From a virus (Duplodnaviria > Caudoviricetes): a DNA stretch of 64,000 nt. This document shows, in pieces, positions 2,740 to 46,152 of this stretch; the stretch's first letter is position 1; every line of letters begins with the position of its first letter. The DNA lies in IMG/VR virus record IMGVR_UViG_2925282926_000001, positions 32,001 through 96,000 of that record, one strand, 5' to 3'. The position numbers and the translations under genes are program-made. The notes below the pieces were generated by a model that was not told the DNA's origin, did not search any database, and saw nothing but the letters and a program-made list of their open reading frames with translations.

Positions 2740-4096
2740 CATTTCTGTTCACATGGTGTCGCTAATACCATGCCGCCGATCGGCAGCTGTATGTTTCCAT
2801 ACAGATCAGACTATATCTTCATCCAAGCAATAAAAAAAGAAGGCTTGGATGCCTCCCGTTTCGAGCCGCTTGGCCCTACGTCTTTCGACTAGTCGTTGAA
2901 GGTTCTGCCCTCGTTGTATTTAAATAAAAGATCATCCATCGTATCTTTGTCAGTCACATCTTCTCTGAAAAGTTTGTATCCCCTGGTATGACGATACTTG
3001 CCTGTTAAGGCATTATATAAGTTGGAATAACTGGTCTTGGAACCGACTCGAACATCAAACCAACTTTTCAAATCAAACCACGAGTCAAACTTATAAATTT
3101 CTCCGTTTGATACGTCCACAGCATAAGAAGAGACTGATTTTGCATTTGGATGGATACTGCCTTGTCTATGATCTTTTATTACAACTGGTTCAATGATTCC
3201 GTGTTTGAATTTATGTTCAATCTCAGTTAGGACTCGGTGATCTGTGACATCTTGGCGAAAAAACATATGACCTTTAAAAGTCTTTCGACCTTTTCCGCCT
3301 CGCATGACTGCAAGAACACCGCTACGGCTCAATTTTATACCTCTCTTTTCAAATGAATCTCTTAAATCAAAAAAAGAGTTGAATTTCTCAATTAAACCAG
3401 TCGAACACTCCAAGGAATAACATATTACAGCCTTTATAGATGGATTAGCGTTACCTTTTAAGCGTCCTCTATTTGAATTACCGATCTTCTCTTTTGTGTC
3501 TATTGACATCTTAGTTCCAAATAGAGGATGGTTTATTCCGCTAACAAGGTGTCCCTTTCCATACTTAGGATTAGATTCCCCAGACCAGCTTCCGCGCTTC
3601 TTGTGGGTGACGCTGATTTTCTTCCTCGTCTCCTTTGAGAAAACCGCCCCATTCATTCCTTCGCCCCCCAAAGTCGCGTTATATCCATGCGCATCCTTGT
3701 TATGAGCAAAGGTTTTCATTTTTCCAATGAAGTGTTTTTCTCTTTCAGCAGCTTCCGCGAGTGTTTCGACTTGTTCAATTAACTCGGTATAAAATTGGTC
3801 TTTCCCATATTTCCTTATAGCTCGGCAGAGATACCTTTCGCTTGATCCACGAGATTGTTTGATATGATCATTGAATCTCGACTCATATCCCTTTGACGTG
3901 TATCCTACATATCTTTTGCCGTTCACTTTATTTGTGATTACATATATATCATACACGGAATAAATCCCCCTCAGGCAGCTTCCCTGCTGATTGTCTTCCC
4001 TAAACCAATCATACCAAACTTAATTCCTTGATGGTATCTTTTGGATGGGTTAAGACTTCCCAGCATAAAGAGAGGTTTAACGTGAGCTATACGATA
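2740..4096 (-). ncRNA. Group I self-splicing intron (IA-like) in the tape measure gene, 1357 nt
   Basis: P1 exon GUGGGU pairs with intron GCUCAC, with a U-G pair at the 5' splice site; P AUGCUGGGAA, Q AAUCAGCAGG, R CUUCAACGACUA, S AAGAUAUAGUCU; terminal G at 2740; splicing restores frame. Confidence 0.93.
2889..3956 (-). CDS. Intron-encoded GIY-YIG homing endonuclease with NUMOD-type DNA-binding repeats
   Basis: N-terminal DIYVITNKVNGKRYVG...R...H; GYNATLGG; SKETRKKIS / SIDTKEKIG NUMOD3-like repeats; stop codon overlaps the intron R element. Confidence 0.92.
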   Translation of the reverse strand: MYDIYVITNKVNGKRYVGYTSKGYESRFNDHIKQSRGSSERYLCRAIRKYGKDQFYTELIEQVETLAEAAEREKHFIGKMKTFAHNKDAHGYNATLGGEGMNGAVFSKETRKKISVTHKKRGSWSGESNPKYGKGHLVSGINHPLFGTKMSIDTKEKIGNSNRGRLKGNANPSIKAVICYSLECSTGLIEKFNSFFDLRDSFEKRGIKLSRSGVLAVMRGGKGRKTFKGHMFFRQDVTDHRVLTEIEHKFKHGIIEPVVIKDHRQGSIHPNAKSVSSYAVDVSNGEIYKFDSWFDLKSWFDVRVGSKTSYSNLYNALTGKYRHTRGYKLFREDVTDKDTMDDLLFKYNEGRTFND

Positions 4097-12237: not shown

Positions 12238-13919
12238 TAGTTTTGTTCACCCCCTTCCCCGTCTTCATCGTCGTTGTCCTCATCGTCTATATTTGATGGT
12301 TCAGAAGGCGTTGCAGGTGCAGCGCCCTCTGTTAATCCAAGTTCTTTCAGGCGCTTTTTCTCGTAGGATCGTTGTTGGACGTTGTCCTCCCACGATCCAC
12401 CGTTGATCTCGGCTGTCTCCCTGGTAGCGGTGGAAAGGTTGTTCTCCATACGCATGACTGAGGCTTGCACTTCCTTGGTTGGATCGAGCAACCCCTGGCT
12501 CGGACCATGCCATTCAGCTTTTGTGTACGCAGCAAAAATAGCCGGATCATCAAAGATTCCCGGCGCACTTATACGTCCTTTTGCTACAGCCTCAACAAAC
12601 CATTCCTCATAGATCGGTTGACAAAAATTCTTTGACAACCAGGCGCGGCGCATGCGGTACATTTTCCAAGCTTCCAGGAGCGCGCCGCGAGAAGCGGAGT
12701 AAGAGCTGGTGAACTGCTTTGTCAAAATCTCATACGGAAGTTCCAGCGCCGCTGCTATTTGCTTAAGCAACGCCCGGACAAACGCCTCGTAGTTCGGGTT
12801 TGGTCGGGTAGGGTCTGCAAACTTAACATCCTCACCCGGATCGGTGCGGACGATAGCTCCAGCTCCCATTTTCAACTCGTTGCCTGTAGCATCTGGCCTT
12901 TCCTGCGCCTCCGGTAATTCATCCATCGGCATACCTACCGTTTCAAACGGATCATCTCCGTCATCCTCGGTTGGGGTTGTAATAAATACGGTGTACATTG
13001 ACGTGACCACCGCGGCGGTCAACTCAGCGTGGGTGTATTGCTCCAGCAGCTTCAAGGATTCAATGATCGGAGACACCACGGGGATACCACGGCGCTGTCC
13101 AGGCCGTTCGGACTCGAACAGGTGGATAACGTTCACCCTTCCGGTCTTGGAACCGTATTTTTGCACCCTCTGCCAGTCATTTGCCCCGGTCAGATTGTAT
13201 CCACTGGCTCCAGGATGTCGATTGCTAAAATGATACGCGACAACCATCCCGTCACTATCTACCTCCACGCCGGATTGAATCTTGTTTCCATCGGTGTTGG
13301 CGCTGCTGTTCGGTGTGTCACAGCGGTCAGCCTCAATCAAATTCACTTTGAGGTCATAAACCGACCACTTACGAGGCAGAAACGGCATAAGCGCGAACAC
13401 ATCACCGCTCATAAGGGTCGAGATAAAGGCCAGGGCTTGAAGCTCATAGAAGTCATTGACCCCGGCTGCATCACATTTGGTTGTCTCAGCCCACAACGCC
13501 CATTCACTTTGAATGGACCGGCGCAATTCCTCGGCCTGTTGTTCATCCAATCCCAACCTCTCAGCATCAAAAGCAGGGCTGAGTTTGAGTCCGGTACCAA
13601 CAATGTTTGTACGTAAACCCTTATGGGCAGCGGCGACGATATCGGAACCCATGTGCAAGTCCCTGGAACGTTCGCGCAGGGTCTTAACATTCTTGTGGAT
13701 ATCCGTATCGGCATCCCCTGCCTTCGCTCCCCAAAAGAACATATTCTTTTTGGTGCGACTGGCTCCATGCTTTCCGTAACCTCTACCATTACTTCCGGCA
13801 CTGTAGTTGTTCGTCACCTTACGGATGGCCTGTTGTCTGACAATTTCTGTACGTGCTATTTCGCGCCTAGCAGCTACACCAGGAGCGAAGGCTGCAATTG
13901 CTTTGTCGATAATATTCAT
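12237..13919 (-). CDS. Portal protein, lambda family
   Basis: LRERSRDL, ERPGQRRGIP, SSYSASRGALLE, DPTKE. Confidence 0.95.
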   Translation of the reverse strand: MNIIDKAIAAFAPGVAARREIARTEIVRQQAIRKVTNNYSAGSNGRGYGKHGASRTKKNMFFWGAKAGDADTDIHKNVKTLRERSRDLHMGSDIVAAAHKGLRTNIVGTGLKLSPAFDAERLGLDEQQAEELRRSIQSEWALWAETTKCDAAGVNDFYELQALAFISTLMSGDVFALMPFLPRKWSVYDLKVNLIEADRCDTPNSSANTDGNKIQSGVEVDSDGMVVAYHFSNRHPGASGYNLTGANDWQRVQKYGSKTGRVNVIHLFESERPGQRRGIPVVSPIIESLKLLEQYTHAELTAAVVTSMYTVFITTPTEDDGDDPFETVGMPMDELPEAQERPDATGNELKMGAGAIVRTDPGEDVKFADPTRPNPNYEAFVRALLKQIAAALELPYEILTKQFTSSYSASRGALLEAWKMYRMRRAWLSKNFCQPIYEEWFVEAVAKGRISAPGIFDDPAIFAAYTKAEWHGPSQGLLDPTKEVQASVMRMENNLSTATRETAEINGGSWEDNVQQRSYEKKRLKELGLTEGAAPATPSEPSNIDDEDNDDEDGEGGEQN

Positions 13920-14182: not shown

Positions 14183-16042
14183 CTACACTCCACTAGAAAC
14201 CATGCCGCCTTTTTTCTTTTTCGGCTGCTTCCGTCCTGCTCCTGGTTTACTCGGATCAGGCAAAGGAAGGTTAAAGTTAGGGTTTGCCATCTCGATTGCT
14301 GCTCGGTTATAAACCGCAAGGTCAAGTGCCTCGTTTCGTGCCCTTGTTTGCACCCATGCAGTATATGGTTTTCCGCCCTTGTACCTCGTAACAAGCTGCT
14401 CCGCTGTCATTTGCTTGAAATATTCCTCGTCATAAACGAACGGATCGGGATTGTCGGGGTGAGGCAGAGGGAAACGACACGAACCAAGCTCTCCAGGATC
14501 GAGGCTGAGGGACGCAAAAACTGCCGCCTTACCTTCGGATACCCCAACACGAATAACTGTCGCTTTCGGGACGTTGTTCGTGCTGAACCCGTTCAGTAGC
14601 GGGGTCTGTGTTCCGTCTCCGGCTTCCTCGCCCTTCAAGGCGTAAACGTTCAATGCTTGCAGCGGCCTGCAAAACTTGTACACCCTCAAAGTGTGGTGCC
14701 CCCCGGAGTCTATCAGCGTTCGAACAGATCTGAATGGCCTGCCCTCTGCATCGTGCCACGTCCTGGAGAGAAATTCCCGTAGCTCCTGCCAGACTTGCGG
14801 TTGATTGAGGTCGCCAGGGATGATGTGGCGCTGTATTCTCCAGCTTGTGAAGCCTGAACCCCACCCAACTACATCAATTTCAAAGCGTGTATCCTGCGTA
14901 TCGACCCCGATTGTCAGGAATTTAACCCCTTCCGGCACCCTTGCGCGGTACATTTCGCGGCGATTAAGAAGGATTTCGTGTTCAAGCTTCTGCCCTTCTT
15001 CCTCCCAAAGCTCTGCCAAAACCGTATTTATGAAGACTTTTACGGCTTGTTTCCCCTTCTTATTTGCCGCTACCCACTCCGCTACTGCCATTTTCCATGT
15101 GTAATTGATGGTTGCAGCGAGTGCGGAAAGGTGAAATCCACGAGTTGTGGCGTGTTTTTTCTCGGCTATCCACTGAGTACGATCCGCATAATCTCGCTTC
15201 CACTCGTGTTCATGGTGCATTGCCCCGCATTCCTCGCAAGCGTGTGTCACTTCTGTACACTGGCTCGTTTCTTCATCGTAGGTGTATTTCATCCGTTGCC
15301 AACTCAGCGTTTGAAGGTGGTCGCAGCTCGGACACATGAAGTGCAGGCGCTCTTTGGTGCTGTCTTCATACTGCTTCTCAATCTCCGAGTGATCTTTGGT
15401 TGTTGGAGTGGAAACGAAAATCATTTTCCTGTTGTAAAAGGTTGTCGTCCGCTTAAAAGCAAGATCGATAGGCGAACCCTCGTTTCCTGCCGATGCTGCG
15501 AAACGGTCAACCTCATCCGCTAGTAGGATTCTGATCGGTTTGGATGCCAAAGAAGCCGGAGCATTTGACCCAGCTATATTTATCCGTCCGCCTTTGAAGC
15601 TTTTGTAATAAATAGTGTTCCTGCTGTCTCGCGTCTTGGCGGTTGTAAACAGCCTGTTGAGTTGTGGCGAGTCCCGATACATCGGCATGAGTCGGTCATT
15701 AGAGAAATCCTTGGCGACCCCTAGGTCCGGTTGAACCATCATGATAGGCGAAGGATCGTGACCAGTGTAATATCCAATGACATTGAGTTGAAAGGCTGTT
15801 TTACCAAGCTGCGCTCCCATCATTAAGACAACTTTCTCAACGGTGGGGTCAGATACAGCATTCATCGGCCCAACCATGTAAGGGACACGATCAGTACGCC
15901 ATGGACCTTTTTCCGCCGAGTCCTCAGCAGACAAAACCCTGTGCTCATCCGCCCAATCCGTTAGGTGTAAAGGTTCAGGCGGAGCCACAAGGTACATCGT
16001 TTCCTTCAATAATCCGAGCGTTTGCCGTTTACCTGCATTCAC
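14183..16042 (-). CDS. Terminase large subunit, lambda GpA family
   Basis: Walker A GAQLGKT, LLADEVD, STPT, GVDTQ, RNEALD. Confidence 0.96.
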   Translation of the reverse strand: MNAGKRQTLGLLKETMYLVAPPEPLHLTDWADEHRVLSAEDSAEKGPWRTDRVPYMVGPMNAVSDPTVEKVVLMMGAQLGKTAFQLNVIGYYTGHDPSPIMMVQPDLGVAKDFSNDRLMPMYRDSPQLNRLFTTAKTRDSRNTIYYKSFKGGRINIAGSNAPASLASKPIRILLADEVDRFAASAGNEGSPIDLAFKRTTTFYNRKMIFVSTPTTKDHSEIEKQYEDSTKERLHFMCPSCDHLQTLSWQRMKYTYDEETSQCTEVTHACEECGAMHHEHEWKRDYADRTQWIAEKKHATTRGFHLSALAATINYTWKMAVAEWVAANKKGKQAVKVFINTVLAELWEEEGQKLEHEILLNRREMYRARVPEGVKFLTIGVDTQDTRFEIDVVGWGSGFTSWRIQRHIIPGDLNQPQVWQELREFLSRTWHDAEGRPFRSVRTLIDSGGHHTLRVYKFCRPLQALNVYALKGEEAGDGTQTPLLNGFSTNNVPKATVIRVGVSEGKAAVFASLSLDPGELGSCRFPLPHPDNPDPFVYDEEYFKQMTAEQLVTRYKGGKPYTAWVQTRARNEALDLAVYNRAAIEMANPNFNLPLPDPSKPGAGRKQPKKKKGGMVSSGV

Positions 16043-18501: not shown

Positions 18502-19236
18502 TTAGTTACTCCACAATTCCACCTTAACTTTAGATGTCTTGATGTATCGTTCTGGTTGTTCTGCTGGAAGTCCCAAAGGACTCAGACGAGCTGTGCAAAT
18601 GTATTCTCCTGGTGTAAGTAATCCGGTTATCTCTTCATATGCTCCCACTTGATCGTCATTCATTACCAGTACAAATTGTCTTTCCTGTGCCGCGTTGTAC
18701 TGTTTTCCTGTGAGCAACACCAAGGAAATGTTCTTTCTGTTCTGTCCTTCGTCGCCTGCAAGACCAACCGTGTGCAGTGCCATTTTGATAGGTCTGTCCA
18801 CATTTCCACCTGCTCCTGCTGAACGATAAATCCTGATCACCGCACCAGCTCCCGATGTGTTGGACTGCAACATTGTGATGCCTGCGGTGCTGTCGGATGT
18901 CTTTATGCCTATTTGCGCTGTCTGCCATGTGTTCCCGGCGAACTGCAACGACTCAAGCGTGAATTTAATCGCTGTAAACTTGGTCGGATCGAACTTTACC
19001 TTGGTGCGAATATCTGCGTATGAGTTGTTGGTCCGTGGAGCTGTGACAGTCATTTCACCTCTGCCTGGCAATGGTTCGAATGTCGTACCAGCTCCCACAA
19101 CCTCCGTAGCGTCCGCCGCAAGCTTGGTAGCCGTTTCTAGCCACGCTGGGATTGTACCGTCTGTGAAATCAGCCACCAAAGACTTGTACACCTTACCGTA
19201 TGGGATTAATTTGCCATCAGGTCCAGTAATATGCAT
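18502..19236 (-). CDS. Beta-rich (lectin/ConA-like?) protein; homolog of 44211-44891
   Basis: Shares ADFxDGTxPAWL, AGDEGQNRKN, NDDQVGA and LWSN with the prophage 2 protein. Confidence 0.75.
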   Translation of the reverse strand: MHITGPDGKLIPYGKVYKSLVADFTDGTIPAWLETATKLAADATEVVGAGTTFEPLPGRGEMTVTAPRTNNSYADIRTKVKFDPTKFTAIKFTLESLQFAGNTWQTAQIGIKTSDSTAGITMLQSNTSGAGAVIRIYRSAGAGGNVDRPIKMALHTVGLAGDEGQNRKNISLVLLTGKQYNAAQERQFVLVMNDDQVGAYEEITGLLTPGEYICTARLSPLGLPAEQPERYIKTSKVKVELWSN

Positions 19237-19239
19237 GAC

Positions 19240-20244
19240 CTACACCTCCACTGAGTAGGCAAGGCCCACATTGTTGTCCGTATTGTAATACACATAGATT
19301 GTCCCATCGAAAACCGCGACTGTCATAGACTGCATGTTGGTTGTTTCCCAAGGCAGTGTCGGAATGTCCATAATAAGTTTCGGCTTATCCTTGAGCGTTC
19401 GCCAGTCATCCGATATTAGGGCAATGGCGGGACGGGCTACGGTTGTTACCCCGCCAGAAGCGTATGCGGAAAGCATACCCAACCACCACGTTTGTCCTCG
19501 GTACACAAATAATCCAGCATTGGACCGAGAGAAGTTTTCGGTACTATTGAGGGTTGCATCATTTCCGCCGAGCATCATTCTCGGATCACACAACCATTGT
19601 CTACCGTTGTGGGATACCCACATGGCCTTACGACCAAAGTCACCGCCGCCCATTACAGAAAACCCGTACCATTTTTCTGCTGTGCGGAACACTGCGAAAT
19701 ACCCTGTGTGTCCGTCTCCTGGGAAGTTTGGGGGCTTATCAAGCAAAAGTCCGACTCTTGTCCATGTGATCATGTCCGTAGATGTCGCAAGTGCCGTTGA
19801 TTGATTTATACCAAGTCCACTTTGTTGGTAGTACATGAAGAACAGTTTTTCCGTCTCATTCCACATGACAAAAGGCGTTTCCGTTGAATTACCTTCGACT
19901 GTATCGACGTACACCTCACCATGTCTGATCCACGGCCCTTTAGGATCGTTGGCATAAGCTAATCCGATGCCACCACGGGCATTATGGTTCGTGGAGTACG
20001 TTGCATAAAAACGGCCTTTAGCGTTCGGGATCAAATGACCGACCTCAATAGGTCTGAACCAATATATACTCCCTGTTTGAGCCTTTGCCGCCGTATAGAT
20101 TGGGTCACCCTCAAGCTTTACGAACTTAGGAATGTACTGTTCCCTGCCCCTGGTGTCGGAAAATCCATAAGGAGCAATACCTCTGTTGGCTTTCTGGGCT
20201 TCGCCCATCGCCGCCGCGCCCATCTTATAGCCTTTATCAGCCAT
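19240..20244 (-). CDS. Five-bladed beta-propeller glycoside hydrolase-like protein (GH43/32/117/130 superfamily); homolog of 44891-45898
   Basis: GIGLAYANDPKGPW, TETPFV...FMYYQ, LATSTDMITW blade motifs. Confidence 0.75.
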   Translation of the reverse strand: MADKGYKMGAAAMGEAQKANRGIAPYGFSDTRGREQYIPKFVKLEGDPIYTAAKAQTGSIYWFRPIEVGHLIPNAKGRFYATYSTNHNARGGIGLAYANDPKGPWIRHGEVYVDTVEGNSTETPFVMWNETEKLFFMYYQQSGLGINQSTALATSTDMITWTRVGLLLDKPPNFPGDGHTGYFAVFRTAEKWYGFSVMGGGDFGRKAMWVSHNGRQWLCDPRMMLGGNDATLNSTENFSRSNAGLFVYRGQTWWLGMLSAYASGGVTTVARPAIALISDDWRTLKDKPKLIMDIPTLPWETTNMQSMTVAVFDGTIYVYYNTDNNVGLAYSVEV

Positions 20245-20247
20245 CGC

Positions 20248-20718
20248 CTACACAACCCCCTTGATGGAAAGCGTACCGCCACCTGTTGGCGCTGTGTACT
20301 CAATACGTAGTCTGCAAAGAGCCGGGATAGTGTATGAAACAACGTCACCCACATTGGCTGTATTCACCTGCGAGATACTTGCCCCGTTTTCGCGAATGCC
20401 AGGCAAGGCCGTTTTCCGATCGTTGATGTCGATTAAGCATGATGTAAACGTTCCAGTTGTGCTTGCTCCACCACCAAAATAGATAGTGATATCCGTGTCT
20501 TTGGCTACTGCACTCTCGGCTGTCGGTGGATACGTTGCACTACCTGCCGCCGATCCAGCACCTAAAATAGTCACCGTTCTAGGGCCACCAGAAGAACCGC
20601 CTTCAACTTGCTTCATCGGTAGCGGGAAGTCTGCACCCACCGCCCTCATTTTCCCGTTTTCGTCTCGCGCATAAATCTGCTGATTTGCAAGCAAATGACT
20701 ACCATCATACTTCGACAC
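20248..20718 (-). CDS. Small Gly/Thr-rich beta protein heading the GH-like cassette (156 aa)
   Basis: Start moved to the GTG after SD AAAGGAG; the longer ORF call overlaps the tRNA-like element. Confidence 0.7.
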   Translation of the reverse strand: MSKYDGSHLLANQQIYARDENGKMRAVGADFPLPMKQVEGGSSGGPRTVTILGAGSAAGSATYPPTAESAVAKDTDITIYFGGGASTTGTFTSCLIDINDRKTALPGIRENGASISQVNTANVGDVVSYTIPALCRLRIEYTAPTGGGTLSIKGVV

Positions 20719-20764
20719 TGATACCACTCCTTTGTTATTATTTGTCTGACTCGTCACGTTGTAA

Positions 20765-20832
20765 GGCTCCCTGGTGGAATCGAACCACCACATGCCGGAT
20801 CTCTCCGGACTCTACCGTTGAGTTAAGGGAGC
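20765..20832 (-). ncRNA. tRNA-like element lacking an anticodon loop (GAGA tetraloop)
   Basis: GCTCCCT TA ACTC-AACGGTA-GAGT CCGGA-GAGA-TCCGG CATGT GGTGG-TTCGATT-CCACC AGGGAGC C: perfect acceptor, D and T arms. Confidence 0.8.
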
Positions 20833-20835
20833 GCA

Positions 20836-20862
20836 ATAAAAAAAGCCGCCTTTGGCGACTTC
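20836..20862 (-). terminator. Rho-independent terminator after the zinc-ribbon gene
   Basis: AAGTCGCC-AAA-GGCGGCTT followed by TTTTTATT. Confidence 0.75.
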
Positions 20863-24204: not shown

Positions 24205-25386
24205 ATGCCTGTCTATAAGGATGAGAATGTAAAGAAAAATCCGTGGTTTTATGTGCTGGAAATTGGCAAGGGGAAAAATAGAAAGCGGACTAAAAAGCGC
24301 GGTTTTAAAACAAAGAAAGAAGCTCAGGCTGCACTTGTTGAAGCCGAAAACAACGTTAACAACGGTACGTTTATAAAACGTGAAAAGACACTCCTTCCGG
24401 ATCTGATGAATCTATGGCTCAAGACCAAAGAACACTCTATAGCGGATGTCACATACAAAACTTATGGACGACACATATCTTTGCACATAAATGACTATTT
24501 CGAAGATTTCCAAGCAATGGATTTGACTGACGAGGACTGTCTTGATTTCATCAAGCATCTGCGTGTTGAGAAGGAACTCGCTTCTCGATCAGTTAAAGAT
24601 GTATTCAAAGTGTTACGCTCGGCTCTTGATTGGGCTGTGCTGAAGAGTAAGCTTCAAAGAAATGTTACCCGCCTCATTGATATGCCAGCAGTCGAGCGTC
24701 AAGAAATCATGGTCTGGAACGCTGATCAGGTTCGGGAGTTTGATAAGCACATACAAGAACATCACGATTATGTTGCCTTCCTTCTTGCTTATGGGGCTGG
24801 CTTGAGACAATCAGAAGCATTGGCACTCAGATTCAAGGATGTCAATTACGAAAGCAAAACTATATCTGTTGTTCAAACCTTATCACATGATGGCAAGAAG
24901 ATCAGAACGGGTGCAAAAACTGCCTCAGGAACGAGATTGGTTTCTGTGGATGATAAAATCATCAAGGAGATTCAAAAGAGAAAGCGGGTGGTTGCTGCTG
25001 AGAAGTTAAAAGCGGGTGGAGTATACCAAGACAACGACCTGATTGTGGCAACCTCTGTAGGAACTCCTGTTACACCCAGAAACCTACTCAGGACGTTCTA
25101 TAGATACATGGAGAAGCTGGAGATACCAAAGATCACAGTCCACGATCTGAGACATACACATGCCACTCTGTTACTCAAGCAAGGTGAGCATCCGAAGATC
25201 GTTCAGGAGCGACTTGGACATGCCAGCGTTAAAATAACAATTGATCTTTATAGCCATGTTTTACCGAATATGCAGAAAGAGACTGCGGAACGATTTGGGG
25301 ATTTCTTGTTTGGTACCAATTTAGGCACCAAAAATACGAATGGCACCATTTCGGCACCAGACACCGAAAATAGAGAACTTATTTAG
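24205..25386 (+). CDS. int: Tyrosine integrase
   Basis: Arm-binding KRGFKTKKEA; catalytic GLRQSE, HDLRHTHAT, RLGH, LYSH. Confidence 0.96.
   Translation: MPVYKDENVKKNPWFYVLEIGKGKNRKRTKKRGFKTKKEAQAALVEAENNVNNGTFIKREKTLLPDLMNLWLKTKEHSIADVTYKTYGRHISLHINDYFEDFQAMDLTDEDCLDFIKHLRVEKELASRSVKDVFKVLRSALDWAVLKSKLQRNVTRLIDMPAVERQEIMVWNADQVREFDKHIQEHHDYVAFLLAYGAGLRQSEALALRFKDVNYESKTISVVQTLSHDGKKIRTGAKTASGTRLVSVDDKIIKEIQKRKRVVAAEKLKAGGVYQDNDLIVATSVGTPVTPRNLLRTFYRYMEKLEIPKITVHDLRHTHATLLLKQGEHPKIVQERLGHASVKITIDLYSHVLPNMQKETAERFGDFLFGTNLGTKNTNGTISAPDTENRELI
25311..25360 (+). repeat. Arm-type integrase binding repeats (GG[T/C]ACCA x4)
   Basis: tGGTACCAatttaGGCACCA...tGGCACCAtttcGGCACCA near att. Confidence 0.55.
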
Positions 25387-25434
25387 ACCCTATAAATAGT
25401 AAAAAACCCTTGTGTACCAAGAGTTTTTCGAGTA

Positions 25435-25507
25435 TGGAGCCTAGGGGGATCGAACCCCTGACCTCATCGCTGCCAGCGATGCGCTCTCCCAGCTGAGCTA
25501 AGGCCCC
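25435..25507 (-). tRNA. tRNA-Ala(GGC), CCA not encoded; probable attachment site
   Basis: GGGGCCTTAGCTCAGCTGGGAGAGCGCATCGCTGGCAGCGATGAGGTCAGGGGTTCGATCCCCCTAGGCTCCA; G3-U70 pair. Confidence 0.97.
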
Positions 25508-44210: not shown

Positions 44211-44891
44211 TTAATTGCTCCATAAATCGATCTTGACTTGCGATGCGACCAACGTCTTAGCTGCGGCAGCGCTTGTAGTGAGCCGCGCAATACACTGTAA
44301 GTCCCCGTCGGTAAACGAGTCGGTTACGTCCGCAAGGGCTCCGACCTGGTCGTCATTTTGTACGTAGACATAAACGCGCCTACCGGTTGACGTTGCGTAC
44401 TGCTGTCCGGTAAAGAGGCGGACCGTCAAATTCTTGCGGTTCTGTCCTTCGTCTCCCGCCGTGTTAACCGTGAAAAATACCATCTTCGTAGGGTAATCAG
44501 TATAGGTCCCGTCCGCTTTGTATGCGCGGATAATGCCACTCGGCTGATTGACGTTGTGGAAAAACGTTATCCCCGCCTTGCTGTCCGCGCTCTTAATACC
44601 TATCTGCGCCGATATCTGGATGTTCCCGTTAAACTGCAGACCTTCGATTGTGTACGCAATTTCAGTAAACTGCGTACTATTGAACACTGCCGTCGATTTT
44701 AACTCTACGGAACTGCCTGCGGTTGCGGCCGTCGTCAGGCGAAGTAGCCCACGACCTGGTGGCGGCTCAAATGCCGGAGTTCCTACGGTTGTCAGCCACG
44801 CCGGCAGCGTGCCGTCTAAAAAGTCAGCGCAGAGTTGTTTGTGTATCTTACCGCTCGGTATCTCTTTACCGTCTAGTCCGCGATGTAACAT
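44211..44891 (-). CDS. Beta-rich (lectin/ConA-like?) protein; homolog of 18502-19236 (226 aa)
   Basis: True start MLHRGLDG at the TAATG overlap; shared motifs with the prophage 1 protein. Confidence 0.75.
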   Translation of the reverse strand: MLHRGLDGKEIPSGKIHKQLCADFLDGTLPAWLTTVGTPAFEPPPGRGLLRLTTAATAGSSVELKSTAVFNSTQFTEIAYTIEGLQFNGNIQISAQIGIKSADSKAGITFFHNVNQPSGIIRAYKADGTYTDYPTKMVFFTVNTAGDEGQNRKNLTVRLFTGQQYATSTGRRVYVYVQNDDQVGALADVTDSFTDGDLQCIARLTTSAAAAKTLVASQVKIDLWSN

Positions 44892-45898
44892 TACGCCACC
44901 TCCGTATGAACAAGTCCGACATTGTTGTCCGTGTTGTAGTAGACGTAGATGTTTCCGTCCAATACGGATACCATCATCGATTGCATATTCGTCGTCTCCC
45001 ACGGTAAAGTCGGAAATGGAACGAGATCTATCGGACGGTGAAGGAGCTGCCGCAAATCAGGACTTATGCGTGCAATGGCCGGACGGGCTACGGTTGTGAC
45101 TCCGCCAGAAGCATACGCGGACATCATTCCGATCCACCACATTTGTCCGCGATACATGAAGAGTCCGGCGTTAGAGCGTGAGAAATTCTCACCGTAGGAT
45201 AGCGTTGCGTCATTACCGCCGAGCATAGCGCGAGGATCAGAGTACCAAAACTTTCCGTCGTTTGAGTACGATATCGCTTTACGGCCATAATCTCCGCCGC
45301 CCATAACGCTGTATCCGACCCACTTTTCCGCGAACTTGAATACGGCAAAGTAACCGGTGTGTCCGTCTCCTGGGTAGCCATCCGGTTTGTCGAGTACGAT
45401 TCCTATCCGCGTCCACGTCAACATATCGGGAGAGGTCGCAAGTAGCGTAGACTGGTTGATTCCTGCTCCTGATTGCTGATAGTACATATAAAACAGCCGT
45501 TCTTTTTCGTTGTAAATTACGAACGGTGTCTCGGTCGAATCTCCCACAACGGTATCAACGTAAATCTCACCGTAGTTCTTGAACGGACCTTTCGGATCGT
45601 CTGCGTAAGCAAGTCCGATACCGCCCCGCGCATTATGGTTAGTAGAGAACGTCGCGTAGTACTTGCCGAGTGCATTCGGGATCAGTCCGTCGACTTTAAT
45701 TACGCGGAACCAATATATACTTGGCTTCCCGGACATCGCCGCAGTAAATATCGGTTGTCCGTTCAGCTTCGTAAACTTCGGCGCGTACGACTCAACTTGC
45801 GCACCAAATCCGTATGGCGCTACGCCATCATTCGCTCTCTTAGCGGTGAGGGCCGCCTTTCTTGCGCTATTCCTTGCGATCGTGTCACGTCCGGCCAT
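44891..45898 (-). CDS. Five-bladed beta-propeller glycoside hydrolase-like protein; homolog of 19240-20244
   Basis: Long identical blocks such as STNHNARGGIGLAYA, PGDGHTGYFAVF, SAYASGGVTTVARPAIA. Confidence 0.75.
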   Translation of the reverse strand: MAGRDTIARNSARKAALTAKRANDGVAPYGFGAQVESYAPKFTKLNGQPIFTAAMSGKPSIYWFRVIKVDGLIPNALGKYYATFSTNHNARGGIGLAYADDPKGPFKNYGEIYVDTVVGDSTETPFVIYNEKERLFYMYYQQSGAGINQSTLLATSPDMLTWTRIGIVLDKPDGYPGDGHTGYFAVFKFAEKWVGYSVMGGGDYGRKAISYSNDGKFWYSDPRAMLGGNDATLSYGENFSRSNAGLFMYRGQMWWIGMMSAYASGGVTTVARPAIARISPDLRQLLHRPIDLVPFPTLPWETTNMQSMMVSVLDGNIYVYYNTDNNVGLVHTEVA

Positions 45899-46152
45899 TA
45901 GCCGACACCTCCCGGAATAACGCGAACATAACCTCGGTAGGCTGAATTTCCGCTAATAGAAAGCGTTGTGAACGGATCAACGCGCTCATCCAATGCGTCC
46001 CCGCCTTTTACTACTGTTACAAACTTTCCGGCTGTCACGGTAATGTCCGCTGTCCCATCGTTAAAGACAACGATGTAATTTGCGGTGTTCTTGATTGGTA
46101 CGTTCGCCGTCCCCGTTCCTGAAAACGGGTCTCTTGCGATTGGGTCCGCCAT
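45898..46152 (-). CDS. 84-aa beta protein heading the cassette (spike-base-like?)
   Basis: VFNDGTADITVT, beta-rich; SD GGAGG; lies in the head module. Confidence 0.65.
   Translation of the reverse strand: MADPIARDPFSGTGTANVPIKNTANYIVVFNDGTADITVTAGKFVTVVKGGDALDERVDPFTTLSISGNSAYRGYVRVIPGGVG

What the first reader, a model, noticed from the sequence alone, without database searches (positions are those of the whole stretch)
20765..20832. tRNA mimic whose anticodon loop is replaced by a GNRA tetraloop
Seen (minus strand): perfect 7-bp acceptor stem GCTCCCT/AGGGAGC, U8-A9, D arm with GG (ACTC-AACGGTA-GAGT) and canonical T arm (GGTGG-TTCGATT-CCACC). The anticodon arm is CCGGA-GAGA-TCCGG, with no 7-nt loop and no nucleotide 26, and CCA is not encoded. 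All 21 stem pairs are Watson-Crick, which random decay would not easily give. It starts a few nt after a terminator and ends 46 nt before the glycosidase-like cassette. Inference: it cannot decode. It could be an RNase P/Z processing signal for the late mRNA (mascRNA-like) or a decoy for tRNA-binding defence nucleases, synthetases, T-boxes or Rel.
Basis: partly seen in the sequence, partly recalled or inferred. Interest (0 to 1): 0.78.

Follow-up and report, generated by a model that had tools for sequence, protein, structure and literature searches.

The report
Anticodon-less tRNA relic heading phage late genes
A Paenibacillus prophage carries a tRNA-shaped RNA gene that has lost its codon-reading loop yet is kept by selection in many related phages, always just after a terminator and ahead of cargo and DNA-packaging genes, so it most likely now marks an RNA-processing site rather than acting as a tRNA.

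Summary
Window 20765-20832 (minus strand) is a 68-nt cloverleaf with 21 Watson-Crick pairs and a 4-nt loop where the anticodon loop should be. It scores 42.7 bits on Rfam tRNA, and ARAGORN misses it.

It belongs to a family of about 20 distinct sequences in Paenibacillus prophages, in three clades.
- The acceptor, D and T arms stay 95-98% paired, with compensatory changes.
- The anticodon arm has shrunk to a 2-5 bp hairpin with a 3-6 nt loop. GNRA loops are common but not universal.
- The element is 84-97% identical between phages whose adjacent gene is near saturation at synonymous sites, so it is under selection.
- One relative (L206) has a genuine tRNA-Ile(UAU) in the same slot. The family is therefore an ex-tRNA.

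The element always follows a hairpin and T-run and precedes variable sugar-enzyme-like cassettes and/or terminase genes. The gap to the next ORF is often too short for a promoter.

A second, fully armless family sits 18-36 nt before terS in 23 gut-type phage contigs.

Best reading (about 0.5): an exapted RNase P/RNase Z processing module for late transcripts. No RNA data were available, so this function is inferred.

This scan had earlier noted sealed-anticodon tRNA mimics on other phage DNA. Those are a different family.

The parts
20842..20862 (-). Terminator-like hairpin ending the upstream 55-aa Zn-ribbon gene. Its T-run (about 20835-20841) ends 5 nt before the element.
   Evidence: An equivalent hairpin and T-run directly precede most family members.
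20765..20832 (-). Anticodon-less tRNA-derived cloverleaf (clade A of the family), discriminator included.
   Evidence: Rfam tRNA 42.7 bits; MFE is the cloverleaf, z = -3.57; family model R1 96.8 bits.
20826..20832 (-). Acceptor stem, 5' strand (pairs with 20766-20772).
   Evidence: Pairs 1, 2, 3 and 6 vary while remaining paired in relatives.
20809..20823 (-). D arm: 4-bp stem and 7-nt loop with A14, G18, G19 and A21.
   Evidence: 97% paired across 18 sequences.
20795..20808 (-). Remnant of the anticodon arm: 5-bp stem capped by GAGA (20800-20803). Nucleotide 26 is absent.
   Evidence: Length and sequence of this arm vary among relatives.
20790..20794 (-). Variable loop, 5 nt.
   Evidence: Two sequence versions occur within clade A.
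20773..20789 (-). T arm: 5-bp stem and canonical 7-nt T loop.
   Evidence: Three of its five pairs show changes on both sides; 98% paired.
20766..20772 (-). Acceptor stem, 3' strand. Discriminator C is at 20765, followed by the conserved TTAC trailer; no CCA is encoded.
20719..20764 (-). 46-nt leader with a ribosome-binding site, running up to the GTG of the first cassette gene.
   Evidence: Only a weak promoter-like match (9 of 12) lies here.
20248..20718 (-). First cassette gene: 156 aa, family F2, no Pfam hit.
   Evidence: An F2 gene also follows the true tRNA-Ile in L206.
19240..20244 (-). Second cassette gene: 334 aa, with a weak GH43-like match.
18502..19236 (-). Third cassette gene: 244 aa, no Pfam hit.
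14186..16042 (-). Terminase large subunit (gpA type), downstream on the same strand. The lambda-type portal is at 12240-13919.

Best explanation
The element is an ex-tRNA. A phage tRNA-Ile(UAU)-type gene stood at the head of the cargo and packaging (late) genes. It lost its anticodon loop but is kept by selection as a structured RNA.

Shown:
- It is a conserved family.
- It works on the gene strand at the RNA level.
- The acceptor, D and T arms and the elbow nucleotides are under purifying selection, while the anticodon arm is free to shrink.
- It cannot decode.

Inferred:
- The parts kept are those recognised by RNase P (leader/acceptor junction plus the D/T-loop elbow), by RNase Z and by the CCA-adding enzyme.
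- When late transcription reads through the upstream terminator, the cloverleaf would be cut at its 5' end by RNase P and, lacking CCA, after its discriminator by RNase Z.
- These cuts would detach the terminator-containing upstream RNA and give the cargo/terminase mRNA a defined 5' end with a short leader and a strong ribosome-binding site.
- A roughly 70-nt uncharged tRNA-like RNA would be released as a by-product or co-product.
For: Family and structure:
- About 20 distinct members fall in three clades.
- Across 18 sequences the acceptor, D and T helices are 95, 97 and 98% paired, against 30-53% for slid controls.
- Seven pairs change on both sides, and 0 of 500 shuffles reach the observed covariation score.
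- G-U pairs (T-stem pair 2 in 10 of 18; acceptor pair 6; anticodon stem) work only on the gene strand.
- U8, A14, G18, G19, A21, G53, T54, T55, C56, A58 and C61 are invariant.

Selection:
- The element is 84-97% identical in phage pairs whose adjacent F2 gene has 29-62% synonymous third-position identity.

Origin:
- L206 has a true 73-nt tRNA-Ile(UAU) with the same acceptor and D stems as clade B.
- It sits directly before an F2 gene, a GDSL-like gene, TerS, TerL and portal.

Position:
- The element always follows a hairpin and T-run.
- The gap to the next start codon is 30 nt in L014 and L207 and 46 nt in the window.
- That is too short for a separate promoter, so the ORF must be transcribed through the element.
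- Clade B lies upstream of HNH, TerL and portal. The window's copy lies upstream of the cassette, then gpA terminase and portal.

Convergence:
- A fully armless family (Rfam tRNA 50.5 bits) sits between a hairpin with T-run and terS, 18-36 nt before its start codon (measured in 12 loci).
- It occurs in 23 viral contigs.

Established knowledge:
- RNase Z cuts CCA-less precursors after the discriminator, and CCA is then added (PMC10424219).
- The host uses this route: its tRNA-Ala here also lacks an encoded CCA.

Known layout analogue: phage 933W has Q, pR', terminators, tRNA-Ile(AUA), cargo genes and then late genes.
Against: - There is no transcript evidence of any kind, so cleavage by RNase P or RNase Z is untested.
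- The terminator 5 nt upstream could stop most transcription. The model needs read-through or antitermination, and no antiterminator was identified.
- The same GH43-like cassette in the co-resident prophage 2 has no such element, so the cassette does not need it.
- Some members carry a mismatch in a stem (pair 1-72 in clades B and C; a mid-T-stem mismatch in L189 and L193). L010's second copy has a decayed D arm. Constraint is therefore not absolute.
- High sequence identity could partly reflect recombinational spread rather than selection alone.
Confidence: 0.5

Rival explanations
1. The released RNA is the functional product. It would be a stable, uncharged, CCA-tailed tRNA look-alike acting in trans as a decoy or sponge for a protein that binds the acceptor/T-arm side of tRNA. 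Candidates are a host defence or toxin acting on tRNA 3' ends, or a modification or processing enzyme.
For: The same conservation pattern fits this reading. GNRA caps arose in two clades, with only N varying in one subclade, which suggests selection for a tightly closed, nuclease-resistant stub. Phage tRNAs are known counter-defence tools (PMC10264068, PMC11464382, PMC11555353). mascRNA shows that a CCA-tailed, uncharged tRNA-like RNA can act through protein binding (PMC10424219).
Against: The tRNA-targeting defences documented in the papers read here cut the anticodon loop or arm (PMC10264068; PMC13056530), which this RNA lacks. The strict position (after a terminator, tight against the next ORF) is not needed for a trans-acting RNA. 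No partner protein gene co-occurs consistently: neighbours are variable, and the nearby ligase is a DNA-ligase type.
Confidence: 0.17
2. The selected function is at the DNA level. The conserved block would be a junction where gene cassettes are exchanged between phages by recombination, or part of a packaging or recombinase site. The cloverleaf would then be inherited baggage.
For: At least five unrelated cassettes, or none, follow the same element in clade A. Homology between phages often starts and stops at the element's edges. L010 has two tandem 'element plus gene' units, and the second unit's gene (52% identical to F44) is also preceded by an element in clade C. High identity could reflect homogenisation. 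The element lies near terS in family 2, where pac or cos sites often lie.
Against: Compensatory changes keep four RNA helices. The G-U pairs would be C-A mismatches on the other strand, and the tRNA tertiary nucleotides are invariant. A DNA site requires none of this. The element is not a repeat of the integrase-adjacent tRNA-Ala, and no att-like direct repeat of it was found. An independent, convergent armless family is hard to explain by recombination alone.
Confidence: 0.1
3. It is a decaying tRNA pseudogene with no present function, shared by descent.
For: The anticodon arm differs in length among clades. A few members have stem mismatches and one copy is badly decayed. Prophage 2's cassette does without it.
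Against: It is far more conserved than synonymous sites of the adjacent gene. Stems are kept by compensatory change in three clades. Substitutions fall at positions that vary in real tRNAs (16, variable loop, 57, 73). A second lineage reached the same armless state and keeps it in 23 of 23 contigs.
Confidence: 0.06
4. It still decodes in an unusual way, for example with a 6- or 7-nt loop formed when the closing A-U pair opens.
For: ARAGORN can force L010 into a 4-bp stem with a 7-nt loop ('Leu-GAG') and L203 into a 7-nt loop ('Phe-AAA').
Against: The inferred anticodons differ between close relatives. U33 is absent in L010. In L203, positions 32 and 38 form a Watson-Crick pair, and the hairpin folds to an 8-bp stem with a triloop. 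Most members have 3-5 nt loops or stems of only 2-3 bp. The window's copy has a GNRA-capped 5-bp stem as its MFE.
Confidence: 0.03

Closest known systems
Functional tRNA genes at the head of phage late regions, e.g. ileZ (tRNA-Ile, AUA), argN and argO of phage 933W; also the true tRNA-Ile(UAU) in locus L206
   Same: The same layout: late-region terminator(s), then tRNA-Ile reading AUA, then cargo genes, then late or packaging genes. L206 shares its acceptor and D stems with clade B and precedes the same F2 gene family.
   Different: Those are decoding tRNAs with a 5-bp stem and 7-nt loop. Here the anticodon loop is gone and no anticodon is conserved.
mascRNA, the tRNA-like structure at the 3' end of MALAT1 (and the MEN-beta tRNA-like structure)
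   Same: A cloverleaf without a working anticodon that serves as an RNase P/RNase Z processing signal in a longer transcript, receives CCA and is not aminoacylated (PMC10424219). This is the proposed working analogy.
   Different: It is eukaryotic, lies at the 3' end of a long non-coding RNA, and is unrelated in sequence. No Rfam hit to that family was found here. In the present case processing has not been shown, and the element lies 5' of ORFs.
tRNA-Other, the pseudo-tRNA of Bacillus cereus (PMC3399842)
   Same: A Firmicute tRNA-derived element that does not act in translation, is part of a longer transcript and lies next to mobile DNA.
   Different: tRNA-Other keeps a full anticodon arm (a Trp anticodon) and is chromosomal and regulatory. 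It is unrelated in sequence.
Sealed-anticodon tRNA-Glu look-alikes of huge phages, noted earlier by this scan (unpublished AI notes e1-5374152, e1-5653207, e1-5345864)
   Same: Phage-borne tRNA-shaped genes whose anticodon loop is closed into a tetraloop while the tRNA fold is kept.
   Different: Those occur as arrays of 4-8 copies in jumbo phages, derive from tRNA-Glu, have UUCG caps and co-occur with a phage GluRS. Here the element is single-copy, in temperate phages, tRNA-Ile-like and tied to the start of late or cargo operons. I did not re-examine those loci.
YrlA-type bacterial and phage Y RNAs (Rfam RF02553)
   Same: Non-decoding RNAs with tRNA-like acceptor, D and T modules.
   Different: In YrlA the tRNA-like domain sits on a long Ro60-binding helix. 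Here the flanks do not pair, no Rfam hit other than tRNA was found, and no Ro60-like gene was seen among the neighbours examined.

Membership tests
Canonical tRNA (Rfam RF00005) | Cloverleaf with a 7-bp acceptor stem, D arm and T arm, scoring above the family threshold | tested here: met
   42.7 bits against a gathering score of 29, model positions 1-71; MFE is the cloverleaf.
Canonical tRNA (Rfam RF00005) | Conserved tertiary and elbow nucleotides (U8, A14, G18, G19, A21, G53, T54, T55, C56, A58, C61) | tested here: met
   All present in the window copy and invariant across the family.
Canonical tRNA (Rfam RF00005) | 5-bp anticodon stem with a 7-nt loop carrying U33 and an anticodon that is conserved among orthologues | tested here: not met
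   A 4-nt loop here and 3-6 nt loops in relatives, with no conserved triplet. ARAGORN does not call it.
Canonical tRNA (Rfam RF00005) | Aminoacylation and use in translation | not testable with these tools
   No RNA or biochemical data. IleRS depends strongly on the anticodon (established knowledge, from memory), so charging is unlikely.
tRNA-like processing modules (mascRNA type) | tRNA-shaped element lacking a functional anticodon, embedded in a longer transcript | tested here: inconclusive
   The shape and the missing anticodon are shown. Co-transcription is inferred only from gaps of 18-46 nt to the next ORF.
tRNA-like processing modules (mascRNA type) | Cleavage by RNase P at the 5' end and RNase Z at the 3' end, followed by CCA addition | not testable with these tools
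   No RNA-seq run holds this DNA.
tRNA-like processing modules (mascRNA type) | Sequence or structure match to the Rfam mascRNA/menRNA model | tested here: not met
   The permissive Rfam scan lists only tRNA as a meaningful hit.
tRNA-gene attachment-site remnant (att duplication beside an integrase) | Partial 3' tRNA fragment matching the tRNA targeted by the adjacent integrase, present as a direct repeat | tested here: not met
   The cloverleaf is complete and differs from the tRNA-Ala beside the integrase. No matching direct repeat occurs in 14-30 kb.
YrlA / Y RNA | tRNA-like domain closed by a long helix that binds Ro60, with a Ro60 gene nearby | tested here: not met
   No flanking helix, no Rfam hit, and no Ro60-like Pfam hit among the neighbours.
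tmRNA | tRNA-Ala-like domain plus a tag-peptide reading frame | tested here: not met
   ARAGORN finds no tmRNA, and there is no G3-U70 pair.

The most novel reading that the evidence does not exclude
Anticodon-less tRNA modules would be a general, repeatedly evolved 'start signal' of late or packaging operons in phages of Firmicutes. A tRNA gene placed after the late terminator becomes an obligatory RNase P/RNase Z punctuation mark. It then survives loss of its decoding arm, independently in Paenibacillus phages (stub retained) and in gut Lachnospiraceae-type phages (arm deleted entirely, 18-36 nt before terS). If so, host tRNA-processing enzymes would control phage late gene expression, and some 'pseudo-tRNAs' in phage annotations would be functional mRNA-processing elements.
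Probability: 0.35. Interest if true: 0.8.

Novelty: new variant of a known kind. Interest (0 to 1): 0.7.

Why it matters
Phage tRNA genes are usually explained by codon supply or by escape from anticodon nucleases. This family shows that a phage can discard the anticodon and still keep the rest of the tRNA under selection, at a fixed place in front of cargo and packaging genes.

That points to a second job for tRNA genes in phage operons, most plausibly transcript processing by host RNase P and RNase Z. It also gives a simple, testable system: one small element, inducible prophages and natural variants with compensatory changes.

Two practical points follow. tRNA finders miss these elements or mislabel them (Leu, Phe or 'undetermined'). 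And they mark the boundary of highly exchangeable carbohydrate-enzyme-like cassettes.

Tried and rejected
- A near-identity search of the phage collection found nothing. A distant search matched only the SRAP gene of SPbeta-like Bacillus phages, so the SPbeta similarity rests on that one gene.
- The first strict DNA pattern found nothing in viral contigs.
- RNA evidence: no RNA holder is listed for this DNA, so expression could not be examined, and read laying was not used.
- The att-site idea was rejected.
- L031 (a jumbo-phage hit) was dropped because it has no acceptor stem.
- L195-L197, L199 and L210 are ordinary or long-arm tRNAs, not members. L197/L206 is kept as the true-tRNA relative.
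- No other viral tRNA-Ile(UAU) shares the acceptor stem.
- Bacterial Schlafen was considered as a decoy target and set aside, because it cuts the anticodon arm.
- A promoter-like match starting at the discriminator (9 of 12 positions) and a possible weak promoter inside the element were judged unconvincing.
- Literature searches for anticodon-less or tRNA-like elements in phages or before terminase genes found no description. The primary RNase Z paper (PMC202377) is not held, so my recollection that U after the discriminator favours cleavage is not used as evidence.
- The family-level genome search found no member outside the genus among those sampled.

Full report
**1. The observation**

On the minus strand, window 20765-20832 reads as a complete cloverleaf.
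- It has a 7-bp acceptor stem, U8-A9, and a 4-bp D stem with a 7-nt loop carrying GG.
- A 5-bp stem capped by GAGA stands where the anticodon arm should be.
- It also has a 5-nt variable loop, a 5-bp T stem with a canonical T loop, and discriminator C.
- No CCA is encoded, all 21 pairs are Watson-Crick, and nucleotide 26 is missing.

Independent tools agree on the shape.
- ARAGORN reports only the tRNA-Ala(GGC) at 25435-25507.
- Rfam with default filters also lists only that tRNA.
- With permissive filters the Rfam tRNA model aligns the element end to end at 42.7 bits (gathering score 29), with 4 nt in place of the 7-nt loop (same hit).
- The minimum-energy fold is exactly the cloverleaf, and no shuffle of 200 folds as well (z = -3.57).

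A terminator-like hairpin (20862-20842) and its T-run end 5 nt upstream. The next ORF starts 46 nt downstream, at GTG 20718 with a ribosome-binding site.

**2. Setting**

The window is part of a 123-kb viral record. DNA similarity to known phages is limited to an SRAP gene shared with SPbeta-like Bacillus phages. Protein homologues of the downstream gene place the host in Paenibacillus: xylanexedens, pabuli, amylolyticus and taichungensis.

On the element's strand the order is:
- tRNA-Ala and, on the opposite strand, a tyrosine integrase;
- ATP-dependent DNA ligase and SRAP;
- small genes, then a 55-aa Zn-ribbon gene and the terminator;
- the element itself;
- a three-gene cassette of 156 aa, a 334-aa GH43-like protein and 244 aa;
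- small genes, then a gpA-type large terminase and a lambda-type portal.

The element is not a copy of the tRNA-Ala, and no att-like repeat of it exists nearby.

**3. It is a family**

I fetched the DNA around homologues of the 156-aa protein. I then scanned collections with patterns that leave the anticodon-arm length free, and searched 93 Paenibacillus species genomes with a covariance model built from the first ten members. This gave about 20 distinct sequences.

| Clade | Acceptor 5' strand | Length | Anticodon-arm remnant |
|---|---|---|---|
| A (includes the window) | GCUCCCU | 67-69 nt | 4-5 bp stem; loops GAGA, GAUA, GGAGA, UAUAU, UAUGU or CAACGU |
| B | AUUCCCU | 62-65 nt | nucleotide 26 kept; 2-3 bp stem; loops GAAA, GCAA, GGAA, AAAU or UAU |
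| C | ACUCCCU | 70 nt | 5-bp stem with a 5- or 6-nt loop |

No member has a canonical arm. The two that ARAGORN forces into a 7-nt loop get different 'anticodons' (Leu-GAG, Phe-AAA). One lacks U33, and the other has a Watson-Crick 32-38 pair that closes the loop.

Fourteen of the 93 species genomes had strong model hits (E <= 1e-9), and about eleven of these are family members. None of about 148 other genomes sampled from the same bacterial family had one.

**4. Selection at the RNA level**

On a structure-blind MAFFT alignment of 18 distinct members:
- The acceptor, D and T helices are 95, 97 and 98% paired. Slid controls give 30-53%.
- Seven pairs show changes on both sides.
- No shuffle of 500 reaches the observed covariation score.

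The anticodon helix scores lower (74%) only because the clades use different registers.

Other features point the same way.
- Several pairs are G-U (T-stem pair 2 in 10 of 18), which fits only the gene strand.
- Variable positions are the ones that vary in real tRNAs (16, variable loop, 57, 73), and the elbow nucleotides are invariant.
- Between clade A phages whose adjacent F2 gene is near saturation at synonymous third positions (29-62% identity), the element stays 84-97% identical.

Recombinational spread could add to this identity, but the pattern across all pairs argues against a neutral relic. Constraint is not absolute. Pair 1-72 is mismatched in most of clade B and in clade C, two members have a mid-T-stem mismatch, and a second copy in L010 has lost its D arm.

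**5. Origin**

In one Paenibacillus genome (L197/L206) the slot directly upstream of an F2-family gene holds a genuine 73-nt tRNA-Ile(UAU).
- It has a normal 5-bp stem, the loop CUUAUAU and discriminator A73.
- It has the same acceptor and D stems as clade B, and no encoded CCA.
- It is followed by F2, a GDSL-like protein, TerS, TerL and portal.

The family is therefore best read as descended from a late-region phage tRNA-Ile reading AUA.

This layout is known for working tRNAs. The annotated record of phage 933W shows Q, pR', terminators, ileZ (tRNA-Ile, AUA), two tRNA-Arg genes, cargo genes and then late genes.

**6. Position and neighbours**

In clade A the element holds a fixed backbone position. 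What follows it is highly variable:
- F2, a GH43-like protein and a 244-aa protein;
- F2 and a 560-aa protein;
- a 218-aa protein and a 923-aa GH9/CelD-like protein;
- a 144-aa protein, a GDSL-like protein and a pectate-lyase-like protein;
- or nothing at all.

Further points on position:
- Clade B lies 2-3 kb upstream of HNH, TerL and portal.
- Clade C precedes a pectate-lyase-like gene next to what looks like host lacZ.
- L010 has two tandem 'element plus gene' units.
- In most members a hairpin and T-run abut the 5' end.
- The distance to the next start codon is as short as 30 nt, or 29 nt for the true tRNA. That leaves no room for a separate promoter, so the downstream ORF must be transcribed through the element.
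- The copy of the GH43-like cassette in the co-resident second prophage has no such element. The element therefore belongs to the phage backbone, not to the cassette.

**7. A second, convergent family**

The broader pattern scans turned up a different element.
- It is 56-62 nt long, with acceptor, D and T arms. The whole anticodon arm is replaced by an 8-13 nt linker.
- Rfam scores it as tRNA at 50.5 bits.
- It occurs in 23 viral contigs, all armless, with no normal-length parent found.
- Each copy follows a hairpin and T-run. In the 12 loci mapped it lies 18-36 nt before terS, followed by terL and portal.
- The terminase resembles that of Roseburia phage Jekyll, and one locus is from a human-gut assembly.
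- A further independent armless example is L240.

**8. Mechanism**

The retained parts are the leader/acceptor junction, the acceptor-T coaxial stack, the D/T elbow and a CCA-less 3' end with a conserved trailer. These are what RNase P, RNase Z and the CCA-adding enzyme recognise (PMC12630138 abstract; PMC10424219). The part that is free to decay is the one used only for decoding and for anticodon-dependent charging.

The element also has a fixed place between a terminator and tightly following ORFs at the head of the cargo and packaging genes. Together, these facts make an exapted processing module of late read-through transcripts the best-supported reading. Release of a small uncharged tRNA-like RNA would be a possible second output.

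I put this at about 0.5, because no transcript or cleavage data exist. The rivals are:

| Rival | Confidence | Main argument |
|---|---|---|
| Trans-acting decoy | 0.17 | The known tRNA-cutting defences read here act on the anticodon arm |
| DNA-level junction for cassette exchange or packaging | 0.10 | Supported by mosaic boundaries, contradicted by strand-specific RNA covariation |
| Neutral relic | 0.06 | Contradicted |
| Odd decoder | 0.03 | Inferred anticodons disagree and the loops are too short |

**9. Novelty**

tRNA-like processing signals and pseudo-tRNAs are known, for example mascRNA and B. cereus tRNA-Other (PMC3399842). This scan has also noted sealed-anticodon tRNA-Glu mimics in huge phages on other DNA (unchecked notes).

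I found no description of anticodon-less tRNA modules at the head of late operons of temperate phages. I therefore class it as a new variant of a known kind.

Noticed in passing
L378:1190-1250 (also L388, L404, L405, L351, L216, L239, L276, L331 and others): A second family of 56-62-nt tRNA-like elements with no anticodon arm at all (an 8-13 nt linker instead). Each follows a hairpin and T-run; in the 12 loci mapped it lies 18-36 nt upstream of terS-terL-portal. It occurs in 23 viral contigs of gut Lachnospiraceae-type phages. Rfam scores it as tRNA at 50.5 bits.
   Followed up: partly
L240:3914-3969: An independent armless tRNA-like element with a different acceptor stem and an 8-nt linker, in a metagenome contig. 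Its context was not examined.
   Followed up: no
L010:4741-4801: A degenerate 61-nt second copy of the mimic (D arm decayed, T arm and acceptor kept) between the GDSL-like and pectate-lyase-like genes, giving two tandem 'mimic plus gene' units in one prophage.
   Followed up: partly
L203:6001-6070 and L204:6001-6070: Clade C copies lie next to a GH2 beta-galactosidase gene (probably host) and before a pectate-lyase-like gene. Their 3' half and 3' flank resemble clade A while the 5' half differs, as if produced by recombination within the element. In G077 an integrase-bearing element of about 21 kb, with its own clade A mimic, lies just beyond.
   Followed up: partly
window 44211-46152: A second copy of the small-protein, GH43-like, beta-rich cassette in the co-resident prophage, embedded in an operon with no mimic upstream (best model score 6 bits).
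   Followed up: yes
window 24205-25507: A tyrosine integrase reads towards an intact, CCA-less tRNA-Ala(GGC). Earlier scan notes take this as the junction between two prophages.
   Followed up: partly
window 2787-3135: Group I intron (Rfam 68.9 bits) on the minus strand. Earlier notes place it in the tape-measure gene.
   Followed up: no
L206:4370-5014: A 215-aa protein with a BURPS668_1122-type toxin-deaminase/APOBEC-like domain lies about 1 kb upstream of the true tRNA-Ile(UAU).
   Followed up: no
L378:1958-3448: The large-terminase ORF shows a sub-threshold intein-splicing-domain match at its C-terminal end, and the terminase may be split by an intein.
   Followed up: no
L015, L045, L055 (viral contigs): tRNA-like genes that ARAGORN reads with a 6-nt anticodon loop and a two-base 'anticodon' (at), unrelated to the present family.
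   Followed up: no
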